A stretch of DNA of 64,000 nucleotides, from NCBI RefSeq assembly GCF_057098645.1, contig NZ_CM169472.1, one strand, 5' to 3'. Positions within the stretch are counted from its first letter, which is position 1. Every line of letters starts with the position of its first letter. Below are positions 31,401 to 34,400 of the stretch, one piece after another. Position numbers: made by a program.

Positions 31401-34400
31401 TAACTATTCAGAAAGAAGCGATTATTAATTCTGATGTCATACTTCTGCAGCTCGAAACAAATTATACCGCTCTGCAACAAGCGATCACATTGGCGCAAAA
31501 AAACAGTATCCCGGTCATTATTAACCCGGCACCCTATAATGATATCGTCAACGAACTTATTCAGGATGTTGATTATATCACCCCCAATGAAACAGAAGCT
31601 GGTTTACTGTCCGGCATAGACGTACACGATCTTGAATCAGCTAAACGAGCTGCAGAAGCTATCCACAATAAAGGGGTAAAAAACACGGTTATCACGCTCG
31701 GTAGCAAGGGCTCGCTCGCATTTGATGGCAAAAAATTCATTCATTCGCCAGCGTTTCCAGCGGTCGTTAAAAATACGGCAGGAGCCGGGGATGCGTTTAA
31801 CGGCTCTCTGGCATCAGGACTTGCGAAAGGAAAATCACTGGAATCAGCACTGTGTTATGCCAGCGCCTTTGCATCCCTAGCGGTGGAGACAAGCAATGCT
31901 TCCGACATGCCTGAACATGAATCTGTGATACATCGAATTCAGAGTATACATTATCAGCAAACTATTTTTACGCATTAAGAAGGGACAGAGAATGAATAAC
32001 ACCAAAAAATCACTAAAAGTGCTCTTTATTGGGGATGGATTTGCCCCTATATTTCCAGACATCTGTTATCACTTAACCCATTACAAGCCCGCTGCCGCAG
32101 ATATTCCCGTGGCGAGCGATAACCCAGCGCACTATGCGGATGCCATTCGTTATAATGCTCGAACGCCTCTGCAAGGTTCTTTGCTGCCGTTAACCCGTCT
32201 GGTTTGGGCATGATACTGATGTAGTCACGCTTTATCGTTTTCACGAAGCTCTCTGCTATTCCGTTACTCTCCGGACTCCGCACCGCCGTGTTCTTCGGTT
32301 CAAGTCCCAACATCCGGGCGAACTGGCGTGTTTCATTAGCCCGGTAGCATGAACCATTATCCGTCAGCCACTCCACTGGAGACGACGGAAGATCGTTGCC
32401 GAAGCGGCGTTCCACCGCTCCCAGCATGACGTCCTGTACTGTTTCACTGTTGAAGCCGCCGGTAGTCACCGCCCAGTGCAGTGCCTCACGATCACAGCAG
32501 TCCAGCGCGAACGTGACACGCAGTCTCTCTCCGTTATCACAGCAGAACTCGAACCCGTCAGAGCACCATCGCTGATTGCTTTCTTTCACGGCCACTCTGC
32601 CTGTATGTGCCCGTTTCGATGGCGGTACAGCAGGTTTTCGCTCAAGCAACAGCGCATTCTGGCGCATGATCCGGTAAACACGTTTGGCATTGATCGCAGG
32701 CATACCATCAAGTTCTGCCTGTCTGCGAAGCAGCGCCCATACCCGACGATAACCATACGTGGGCAGCTCTCCGATAACATGGTGTATACGGAGAAGCACA
32801 TCCGTATCATCAGTGTGACGACTGCGGCGGCCATCCATCCAGTCATCGGTTCGTCTGAGAATGACGTGCAACTGCGCACGCGACACCCGGAGACAACGGC
32901 TGACTAAGCTTACTCCCCATCCCCGGGCAATAAGGGCGCGTGCGCTATCCACTTTTTTGCCCGTCCATATTCAACGGCTTCTTTGAGGAGTTCATTTTCC
33001 ATCGTTTTCTTGCCGAGCAGGCGCTGGAGTTCTTTAATCTGCTTCATGGCGGCAGCAAGTTCAGAGGCAGGAACAACCTGTTCTCCGGCGGCCACAGCAG
33101 TAAGACTTCCTTCCTGGTATTGCTTACGCCAGAGAAATAACTGGCTGGCTGCTACACCATGTTGCCGGGCAACGAGGGAGACCGTCATCCCCGGTTCAAA
33201 GCTCTGCTGAACAATTGCGATCTTTTCCTGTGTGGTACGCCGTCTGCGTTTCTCCGGCCCTAAGACATCAATCATCTGTTCTCCAATGACTAGTCTAAAA
33301 ACTAGTATTAAGACTATCACTTATTTAAGTGATACTGGTTGTCTGGAGATTCAGGGGGCCAGTCTATCTGGAGATTCAGGGGGCCAGTCTAAGATGTCCT
33401 TACCCTGCGCCATCTGCAGCTTCTGCACCAGAACCGGTGAATCTCACTCAACAGGCTTCATTTCCCCTGACGCCAGCCTGAATACAGCTGGCGTTTTCAT
33501 TTATAAACAGAAAGGAAAACCGATAATAATGGAATGGACGCCCCGACCATGAAGCAACGGTAGGATATTACTGATAAACCTTCCAGTGGAGGTGCGTTAT
33601 GGCCGTTTTAACGATTAGCATTGACCTGACAAAAAATGAATTCCAAATCCACGGTCTGGGTAGGAACAGAAAAATCTAAGCTCAGAAAACGGATTAAAGT
33701 AAGCGTCAACGGAGCACCGTATTGACGCTTATTTATTGGTGAGAACTACGTTCCATGGCAGGAGTTCGTCAACACGGTTGGAGGGCCATTCCGGCAGTAT
33801 GCTCAGAATATGGCGCAGATACGCTTCCGGATCGATACCGTTCAGACGGCAGGTGCCTGCTTTTCCGGCAACAAGCAGGAATCTCAGTGCTGAAGCAGGA
33901 ATTAGAGGTAAAAACGCCCTACCGGGCCATGAATCACCCGGTCATTGGAGTAGTAACCAAAGCAGATTTAGCCAGCATGGAACAAATATCTTTGGTGAAA
34001 AGTTGGTTACGGGAAGCTGGAGCGCACAACGTGTTAGTAACCAGTGCAGTTAATAACAATGGAGTTACAGAACTTTTTGCCTTGCTGCATACAGAAGAAG
34101 GCTGTTGTTAATTTCGATTGGTTCTCAGATGAGAATGATGACGGTGATACACAGATAAGAATCAATGAGCAATGAGGGTTGCCGGGCAACCCTCATTGAA
34201 TAAAACGGGAATTACTTCGCTTCGCCGTTTTTCATTTCGCCCATAGCTTTCAGCTTTTTGGAGATATCGCGGCGTTCTTTGGAGAGCTCGGCATTTTTGA
34301 TGATGTAATCGTCAACGCGATCTTCATAGTCACCTTTCATGCTGGCGATGATGCCCTGGATTGCTTCAACGCTCATCCCAGGCTTGATGTAATCGCTCAG

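What the first reader, a model, noticed from the sequence alone, without database searches (positions are those of the whole stretch)
31992..32035. Gene start truncated by IS2 directly downstream of the DeoR-kinase gene
An ORF with a plausible RBS begins MNNTKKSLKVLFIGDGF and is cut after about 15 codons by the IS2 end. It was probably the second gene of an operon with the regulator-kinase; its loss may have changed the function of the remaining gene.
Basis: seen in the sequence. Interest (0 to 1): 0.3.

Follow-up and report, generated by a model that had tools for sequence, protein, structure and literature searches.

The report
Gene stub left by IS2 deletion
The 44 bases are the dead front end of a conserved gene of unknown function that normally follows the ribose-kinase gene rikA; an IS2 mobile element and a 28-kb deletion removed the rest, which is ordinary genome decay in an accessory island of E. 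coli O145.

Summary
ATG 31992, with a Shine-Dalgarno AAGGGA 6 nt upstream and 13 nt after the rikA stop, opens a reading frame. Its first 44 nt are identical to the start of a 252-aa 'glutamine amidotransferase' gene (Pfam PF07090 GATase1_like, 81% identical to Salmonella STM3548, PDB 2GK3).

The event was not a simple insertion. A full-length IS2 (32036-33366, minus strand) plus an extra 25-nt copy of its left-end tip (33367-33391) joins the stub to the DUF957 pseudogene remnant at the end of a CP4-44-like element. There is no 5-bp target duplication. Compared with the close relative O145:H28 RM13516, 28,015 bp are missing: the rest of the gene, the DMT transporter pseudogene, the phosphotriesterase-family gene and most of the island.

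rikA itself is intact, with M90 and D343 present. Sister O145 strains lost the rikA cluster through a different 13-kb deletion, and other E. coli carry simple IS2 insertions elsewhere in the same gene.

The stub is a non-functional pseudogene remnant. This is a known kind of event and of low interest. One side observation remains unexplained: the 25-nt IS2 tip duplication recurs at other loci.

The parts
30764..31978 (+). rikA, intact (404 aa): DeoR-type HTH (residues 5-56) fused to a PfkB ribokinase-like domain (92-382)
   Evidence: ORF. Pfam PF08220 and PF00294. Closest NCBIfam model is ribokinase TIGR02152, below its cut-off. Protein identical to WP_000667426.1 of RM13516, with M90 and D343 present. 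PGAP labels the orthologue rikA.
31980..31985 (+). Shine-Dalgarno-like AAGGGA, 6 nt upstream of the ATG, within the 13-nt rikA-stub spacer
   Evidence: Read directly from the sequence. Identical in the intact locus.
31992..32035 (+). 5' stub (14 codons + 2 nt) of the GATase1_like / STM3548-family gene: a pseudogene remnant
   Evidence: 44/44 nt identical to the start of the 759-bp gene in L010. The intact product matches PF07090 at 369.5 bits and PDB 2GK3 at E=4.9e-144 with 81% identity.
31992..32213 (+). Mechanical 73-aa chimeric ORF (stub plus read-through into the antisense strand of IS2); not a gene
   Evidence: Residues 15-73 are encoded by IS2 sequence.
32036..33366 (-). Full-length IS2 (1,331 bp). 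The right inverted repeat (IRR) abuts the stub and the left one (IRL) is at 33366. The transposase reading frames are open (orfB 32047-32952; orfA-containing ORF 32910-33320).
   Evidence: 99.85% identity over 1,331 bp to the annotated 'IS3-like element IS2 family transposase' element of strain 720632. Terminal repeats and open frames.
33367..33391 (-). Extra tandem copy of the outermost 25 nt of the IS2 IRL (TAGACTGGCCCCCTGAATCTCCAGA)
   Evidence: Direct repeat D2, 25 nt, 100%; sequence. The same 54-nt structure occurs at three other loci.
33392..33440 (+). Right deletion end-point: the remaining 3' part of the DUF957-domain pseudogene at the end of the CP4-44-like element
   Evidence: Window 33391-37000 equals L010 30699-34308 at 99.97%. 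The DUF957 pseudogene is annotated at L010 30656-30748.
29987..30165 (+). Old, diverged IS2-like left-end fragment upstream of rikA (about 83% identical to IS2; its first 25 nt are identical to the IS2 IRL tip). It belongs to the ancestral island.
   Evidence: I1, I6. Present in relatives (L010 635-809).

Best explanation
The 44 nt are the dead 5' end of the second gene of the rikA cluster (rikA, GATase1_like/STM3548 homologue, DMT transporter, PTE-family hydrolase), which sits in an accessory island between cobU and yeeX (tmaR) in an E. coli O145 (STEC) chromosome. An IS2-associated deletion removed about 28 kb. It runs from codon 15 of this gene to the DUF957 pseudogene at the far end of a CP4-44-like element. 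What remains is one full-length IS2 plus a 25-nt duplicate of its left tip, joining two sequences that are 28 kb apart in close relatives. The stub keeps its ribosome-binding site and start codon, but it can encode only 14 native residues fused to IS2-antisense sequence, so it has no function. rikA upstream is untouched and probably still makes an active ribokinase. Shown: the identity of the stub, the operon position, the IS2 anatomy, both breakpoints, the absence of a target duplication, and the intactness of rikA. Inferred: how the deletion arose. It could have been homologous recombination between two same-orientation IS2 copies, one inserted at each breakpoint. Alternatively, a single IS2 made an aberrant one-ended strand transfer that deleted the flank, as described for IS3-family elements in EHEC with the IS-excision enhancer. 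Also inferred: the loss was neutral, because the cluster was already decaying.
For: Stub identity and synteny. Family of the intact gene. Operon described in Salmonella, and conserved in Citrobacter, Escherichia, Budvicia and Proteus: PMC13432705. IS2 full length with open reading frames. Breakpoints: window 29352-32035 equals L010 1-2684 and window 33391-37000 equals L010 30699-34308, both at least 99.96% identical, so L010 2685-30699 (28,015 bp) is missing. No target duplication: the left flank is GGGGA and the right flank is AGATG. Simple IS2 insertions in the same gene in other strains do have 5-bp duplications, TATTG and ACTGG. Lineage: the flanks are 100% identical to O145 strains. Decay context: the DMT gene has TAG at codon 203 in all five E. 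coli loci examined; the RM9872/FWSEC0002 clade lost L010 681-13798, which includes rikA, through a different deletion; about 74 of the 1,955 genomes carrying the gene have a split or truncated copy. rikA intact. 'Sloppy' strand-transfer deletions by IS3-family elements with IEE.
Against: Neither presumed precursor was found in 5,426 complete E. coli genomes: no IS2 at codon 15 with the rest of the gene behind it, and no IS2 at the DUF957 site. The exact junction was also absent from the GTDB species representatives. The route to the deletion is therefore unresolved. The source assembly cannot be inspected, so a mis-join across two IS2 copies cannot be excluded. Expression of rikA or of the stub was not tested. 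The promoter/terminator scan was uninformative, with counts at or below those in shuffled sequence.
Confidence: 0.85

Rival explanations
1. Simple IS2 insertion into an otherwise complete gene (the picture implied by the first reader), with the 3' part of the gene lying just beyond the IS2.
For: IS2 does insert simply into this very gene in other strains, with 5-bp duplications: ETEC4089 after nt 250 and 2018-05-5CC after nt 622.
Against: In the window, the DNA beyond IS2 is a 25-nt IRL tip followed by the DUF957 remnant, 28 kb away in RM13516. There is no target duplication. No further GATase1_like, DMT or PTE sequence lies in window 28001-37000.
Confidence: 0.02
2. Assembly artefact. The strain has two IS2 copies, one in the gene at codon 15 and one in the DUF957 remnant, and the assembler collapsed them, dropping the 28 kb between. 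The gene would still be disrupted, but the rest of the cluster would exist.
For: The structure, a single IS2 with no target duplication and flanks 28 kb apart in relatives, is exactly what a repeat collapse would give. The junction occurs in none of 5,426 complete genomes.
Against: Real IS-bounded deletions of this island exist in the same lineage, so a true deletion needs no special pleading. The window is otherwise 100% collinear with complete O145 genomes over at least 25 kb on each side.
Confidence: 0.08
3. A chance ORF: the ATG at 31992 is not a gene start.
For: Only 14 native codons remain, too few for any profile search.
Against: 44/44 nt, plus the upstream spacer, are identical to the start of a gene annotated in about 1,950 genomes. 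The protein has a crystal structure from the Salmonella orthologue.
Confidence: 0.01
4. Adaptive loss. The deletion was selected because the downstream genes, or the CP4-44-like element, were costly, leaving rikA as a deliberately retained stand-alone ribokinase.
For: Two independent, overlapping deletions occurred in closely related O145 strains. IS2 has hit the same gene repeatedly in other lineages. RikA alone supports growth on ribose in Salmonella.
Against: The sister-clade deletion removes rikA itself, so there is no consistent retention. About 96% of carriers keep the gene contiguous. The transporter was already a pseudogene, which fits neutral decay.
Confidence: 0.05

Closest known systems
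STM3548 of Salmonella Typhimurium LT2 (PDB 2GK3; Pfam PF07090 GATase1_like; Petrova et al. 2007, cited in PMC13432705)
   Same: The intact E. coli allele is 81% identical over all 252 residues and sits in the same position directly after rikA. The window's 14 residues match 12 of the first 14 of STM3548.
   Different: The window copy retains only 44 nt. The function of the family is unknown. The 'glutamine amidotransferase' name rests on fold similarity: no PF00117 hit at E<=0.01 and no G-x-C-x-G nucleophile motif in the sequence.
rikA (STM3547)-stm3548-stm3549-stm3550 cluster (McCormick, Jabbar & Escalante-Semerena 2026, Mol Microbiol, PMC13432705)
   Same: Same gene order in intact E. coli relatives: DeoR-HTH/PfkB kinase, GATase1_like, DMT transporter, PTE-family protein. 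The RikA features M90 and D343 are conserved.
   Different: In the window only rikA and a 44-nt stub remain. In all five E. coli loci examined, the DMT gene carries TAG at codon 203. Whether Salmonella has this codon was not checked here.
IS2 insertional inactivation and IS2-bounded deletions (IS3 family, copy-out/paste-in; Lewis et al. 2012, PMC3299598)
   Same: A canonical 1,331-bp IS2 with IRR and IRL and open orfA/orfB. Simple IS2 insertions with 5-bp duplications occur in the same gene in other strains.
   Different: No target duplication here, a 28-kb loss on one side, and an extra 25-nt IRL tip copy. I did not find that tip copy described in the IS2 paper I searched.
IS-excision-enhancer (IEE)-associated deletions next to IS3-family elements in EHEC (Kusumoto et al. 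2011, as reviewed in bioRxiv 10.1101/2023.06.07.543989)
   Same: The host is an EHEC-type lineage, the element is of the IS3 family, and the deletion starts exactly at an IS end. The review describes a 'sloppy' strand-transfer model for such deletions.
   Different: Whether this strain carries iee was not tested. The published work concerns IS629, and IS2 involvement here is an inference.

Membership tests
PF07090 GATase1_like / STM3548 family | Full-length match to the PF07090 profile and to the solved structure 2GK3 | tested here: not met
   The intact allele in relatives meets it (369.5 bits against a cut-off of 27; E=4.9e-144). The window copy keeps only residues 1-14, so it is a remnant and not a functional member.
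PF07090 GATase1_like / STM3548 family | Orthologous position and sequence: start codon 13 nt after rikA, with a 5' end identical to the family gene | tested here: met
   44/44 nt and the upstream spacer are identical to RM13516. The same neighbour is annotated in 1,951 genomes.
rikA-stm3550 four-gene cluster | rikA orthologue upstream (DeoR HTH + PfkB domain, internal Met90, catalytic Asp343) | tested here: met
   PGAP gene name rikA on orthologues. Features defined in PMC13432705.
rikA-stm3550 four-gene cluster | DMT transporter and PTE-family genes downstream | tested here: not met
   Absent from the window: it lacks L010 2685-30699, the segment that holds the DMT and PTE genes (L010 3456-5458). 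Present in relatives.
IS2 (IS3 family) | About 1,331 bp with the IS2 terminal inverted repeats, and orfA/orfB open | tested here: met
   1,331 bp, 99.85% identical to an annotated IS2. IRs (I4). Open frames of 136 and 307 codons.
IS2 (IS3 family) | 5-bp target-site duplication flanking a simple insertion | tested here: not met
   GGGGA on the left and AGATG on the right. This indicates a rearrangement and does not argue against the element being IS2.
Class I glutamine amidotransferase (catalytic) | Cys-His-Glu triad with the Cys in a G-x-C-x-G nucleophile elbow | tested here: inconclusive
   Reading the intact sequence shows no G-x-C-x-G motif. Its Cys residues are at positions 45, 219 and 224. 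There is no PF00117 hit at E<=0.01. No structural superposition was done.

The most novel reading that the evidence does not exclude
The junction may be the footprint of an IS2 reaction that I did not find described. An exact 25-nt copy of the IRL tip sits outside the element here. It also does so at three other independent loci in four of 5,426 genomes, and at two of those loci it lies inside the 5-bp target duplication. It would therefore have arisen in or with the element, for example by insertion of an IS2 circle at position 25/26 of a resident IRL (a predicted DNA bend, L25) followed by collapse, or by template switching during copy-out. The same aberrant event might have produced the 28-kb one-sided deletion that truncated the gene.
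Probability: 0.15. Interest if true: 0.35.

Novelty: already known. Interest (0 to 1): 0.1.

Why it matters
It matters little beyond annotation and strain history. The 73-aa ORF should be annotated as a pseudogene stub of the STM3548-family gene. The locus documents ongoing IS-driven erosion of the cobU-yeeX accessory island in STEC O145, with two independent, overlapping deletions in close relatives. It also provides a natural 'rikA-only' genotype, which could serve as a control once someone tests what the rikA-GATase1_like-DMT-PTE cluster metabolises; that substrate is still unknown (PMC13432705).

Tried and rejected
(1) I searched for the exact stub/IS2 junction and for the IS2-tip/DUF957 junction in 5,426 complete E. 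coli genomes. Only two-piece matches came back, meaning IS2 at other positions, so no precursor or sibling was found.

(2) I scanned the GTDB species representatives for the left junction and for the tandem IRL tip. Neither scan gave a hit.

(3) I tested the 'IS2 inserted into a resident IRL at position 25, then collapsed' idea by searching for the predicted un-collapsed junction, IRR followed by IRL from position 21. No single-piece match was found, so the idea is neither supported nor excluded.

(4) The promoter/terminator consensus scan of 30400-32400 gave counts at or below those in shuffled sequence. No terminator was predicted on the + strand between rikA and IS2. The scan was uninformative.

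(5) I tried to read Petrova et al. 2007 on the STM3548 structure, but the paper is not held. The question of a catalytic triad is therefore left inconclusive.

(6) I considered Shigella as the source because of the IS density. This was rejected: both 25-kb flanks are 100% identical to E. coli O145 genomes, including the start of the O-antigen region.

Full report
**Observation**

The window reads ...CAT TAA G AAGGGA CAGAGA ATG AAT AAC ACC AAA AAA TCA CTA AAA GTG CTC TTT ATT GGG GA | TGGATTTGCCCCTATATTTCCAGACA....
- TAA (31976-31978) ends a 404-aa ORF (30764-31978).
- The ATG is at 31992, and the IS2 right inverted repeat starts at 32036.
- The native part is therefore 44 nt: 14 codons (MNNTKKSLKVLFIG) plus 2 nt.
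- The mechanical ORF continues for 73 codons into IS2 antisense sequence.

**What the stub is**

A query covering the upstream gene plus the stub matched 1,990 of 5,426 complete E. coli genomes, 1,951 of them over at least 80% of its length. The annotation was always 'PfkB family carbohydrate kinase | glutamine amidotransferase', and the kinase is labelled rikA in some records.

In intact loci the order is as follows:
- rikA (1,215 bp)
- a 13-nt spacer
- a 759-bp 'glutamine amidotransferase' gene
- a DMT-family transporter gene
- a phosphotriesterase-family gene

The 252-aa product begins MNNTKKSLKVLFIGESWHIH. It matches Pfam PF07090 GATase1_like end to end at 369.5 bits. It is 81% identical to Salmonella STM3548, whose structure is PDB 2GK3 (E=4.9e-144). 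The window's 44 nt and its upstream spacer are identical to the O145:H28 RM13516 allele.

The cluster was described in 2026. STM3547 was shown to be a ribokinase and named RikA. The downstream genes stm3548-3550 are conserved in Citrobacter, Escherichia, Budvicia and Proteus but are of unknown function, and the authors suspect a pathway for an unknown substrate (PMC13432705).

**What happened to the gene**

Positions 32036-33366 are a full-length IS2 (1,331 bp) on the minus strand. It is 99.85% identical to an annotated IS2, and its orfA and orfB are open.

Immediately after its left end lies a second, exact copy of the outermost 25 nt of the IRL (33367-33391). The sequence then continues in the DUF957-domain pseudogene remnant that closes a CP4-44-like element, followed by the EutP/PduV remnant, tmaR (yeeX), yeeA and sbmC.

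Both 25-kb flanks of the region are 100% identical to E. coli O145 genomes, so the window comes from that STEC lineage. Against O145:H28 RM13516, which has the complete island:
- window 29352-32035 equals L010 1-2684;
- window 33391-37000 equals L010 30699-34308, both blocks at least 99.96% identical;
- 28,015 bp (L010 2685-30699) are therefore replaced by IS2 plus the 25-nt tip.

The five bases flanking the unit differ (GGGGA and AGATG), so there is no target-site duplication. By contrast, IS2 copies inserted elsewhere in the same gene in ETEC4089 (after nt 250) and in strain 2018-05-5CC (after nt 622) are simple insertions with 5-bp duplications, TATTG and ACTGG, and the rest of the gene lies behind them.

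The window thus records an IS2-associated deletion, not just an insertion.

**Mechanism (inferred)**

There are two routes, and I cannot separate them.
- Two IS2 copies in the same orientation, one at each breakpoint, recombined.
- A single IS2 made an aberrant one-ended strand transfer that deleted its flank. This 'sloppy strand transfer' model has been proposed for IS3-family deletions in EHEC carrying the IS-excision enhancer.

Neither single-insertion precursor, nor the junction itself, exists in the 5,426 complete genomes. The left junction is also absent from the GTDB representatives. A repeat-collapse mis-assembly would produce the same picture and cannot be excluded without reads. I give that about 8%.

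**Consequences**

RikA is intact and identical to the protein of strains with the full cluster. It keeps Met90, the start of the form detected in Salmonella, and Asp343, which is needed for activity. In Salmonella, rikA alone supports growth on ribose. Nothing suggests its function changed; it is simply orphaned.

The cluster was already eroding in E. coli:
- The DMT gene has TAG at codon 203 in all five loci I examined.
- The gene is present in 1,955 genomes, and about 74 of those carry a split or truncated copy.
- The O145 strains RM9872 and FWSEC0002, whose flanks are 100% identical to the window, lost L010 681-13798, including rikA, through a different deletion.
- That deletion overlaps the one in the window, and neither can derive from the other.

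This pattern fits neutral decay of an IS-rich accessory island better than selection. The sister-clade deletion removes rikA itself.

**Function of the intact gene**

The function is unknown. The family name rests on a class I amidotransferase-like fold. The sequence has no G-x-C-x-G nucleophile motif and no PF00117 match, so I would not assume glutamine amidotransferase chemistry.

The best available guess, inferred from the gene set and also the guess of the 2026 paper, is a catabolic route for an imported sugar-like compound: the DMT protein as transporter, RikA phosphorylating a furanose 5-OH, and the PTE-family and GATase1_like proteins acting as hydrolases. The PTE protein scores far below the cut-offs of all NCBIfam equivalogs, including Php and phospho-furanose lactonase.

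**Side observation**

The 54-nt 'IRL + 25-nt IRL tip' structure is present, exactly, at three other loci in four genomes. In two of them (ecpD in strains 33-6 and 58-3; a DUF1398 gene in WS4437A-1) a 5-bp duplication, AAAAC or ATAGT, brackets IS2 plus the tip. The tip therefore lies inside the inserted unit.

Position 25 of the IRL is reported as a curvature maximum in the IS2 footprinting paper. A test for the un-collapsed precursor of a 'self-insertion at position 25' model found nothing. The tandem tip is also absent from the GTDB representatives. I leave this unexplained.

**Verdict**

The feature is real, correctly spotted and correctly placed in an operon, but it is an ordinary IS-bounded pseudogene remnant of a known gene family in a known cluster.

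Noticed in passing
window 33342-33391; also L011 1705-1754, L012 1705-1754, L013 1705-1754: An exact tandem duplication of the outermost 25 nt of the IS2 left inverted repeat. 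The same 54-nt structure occurs at three other chromosomal loci in four of 5,426 E. coli genomes. In two of them the 5-bp target duplication (AAAAC, ATAGT) brackets IS2 plus the extra tip, so the tip belongs to the inserted unit. Position 25 is a predicted bend in the IRL (PMC3299598). The origin is unexplained.
   Followed up: partly
L010 3456-4421 (and the same gene in L001, L002, L005, L006): The DMT-family transporter gene of the E. coli rikA cluster carries an in-frame TAG at codon 203 in all five loci examined, which come from different lineages. The E. coli cluster may therefore be generally transport-defective. Whether Salmonella STM3549 is intact at this codon was not checked.
   Followed up: partly
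L005 4407-5737 (ETEC4089) and L006 4779-6109 (2018-05-5CC): Independent simple IS2 insertions, with 5-bp duplications and the same orientation as in the window, at nt 250 and nt 622 of the same GATase1_like gene. About 70 genomes have an IS2/IS3-family end within about 1 kb of the rikA 3' end. ETEC4089 also has an internal stop in rikA. The gene may be an IS2 hot spot.
   Followed up: partly
L007 12452-12454 against L010 680/13799; window 30031: O145 strains RM9872 and FWSEC0002 carry a different 13.1-kb deletion that removes the whole rikA cluster. Its left breakpoint (window 30031) lies about 45 nt inside the old IS2-like left-end fragment, and its right breakpoint lies inside an IS66-family tnpC gene.
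   Followed up: yes
window 29987-30165: A diverged (about 83% identical) IS2-like left-end fragment upstream of rikA. Its first 25 nt are 100% identical to the IS2 IRL tip. Together with the IS2 at 32036-33366, rikA is now bracketed by inverted IS2 left ends. The fragment is ancestral to the island, since it is also present in RM13516.
   Followed up: partly
window 30555-30658 and 33696-33799: A 104-nt inverted repeat (88% complementary), formed by two fragments annotated in relatives as 'transposase domain-containing protein' pseudogenes. One lies just upstream of rikA and one near the yeeX end of the island, so they mark the two ends of the ancestral island.
   Followed up: no
window 33929-34111: A short gene (183 nt as annotated in relatives) for a EutP/PduV-family protein fragment between the island end and tmaR (yeeX). 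It appears to be a conserved remnant present in many E. coli.
   Followed up: no
window 3000-27999 and 36000-60999: The flanks identify the source as E. coli O145 (STEC). The left flank carries Ig-like/inverse-autotransporter genes, shiA, amn, yeeN and yeeO; asn-tRNA genes, cbl, nac, ldtA and cobTSU are annotated in relatives in the stretch leading up to the island. The right flank carries sbcB, plaP, hisD, gndA and a glycosyltransferase family 4 gene; relatives annotate the full his operon, wzzB, ugd and the start of the O-antigen cluster there. RM13516 and RM12761 match the left-flank query only in six pieces spread over 34.6 kb, and T6SS genes (tssI, tssF) are annotated within that span.
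   Followed up: no
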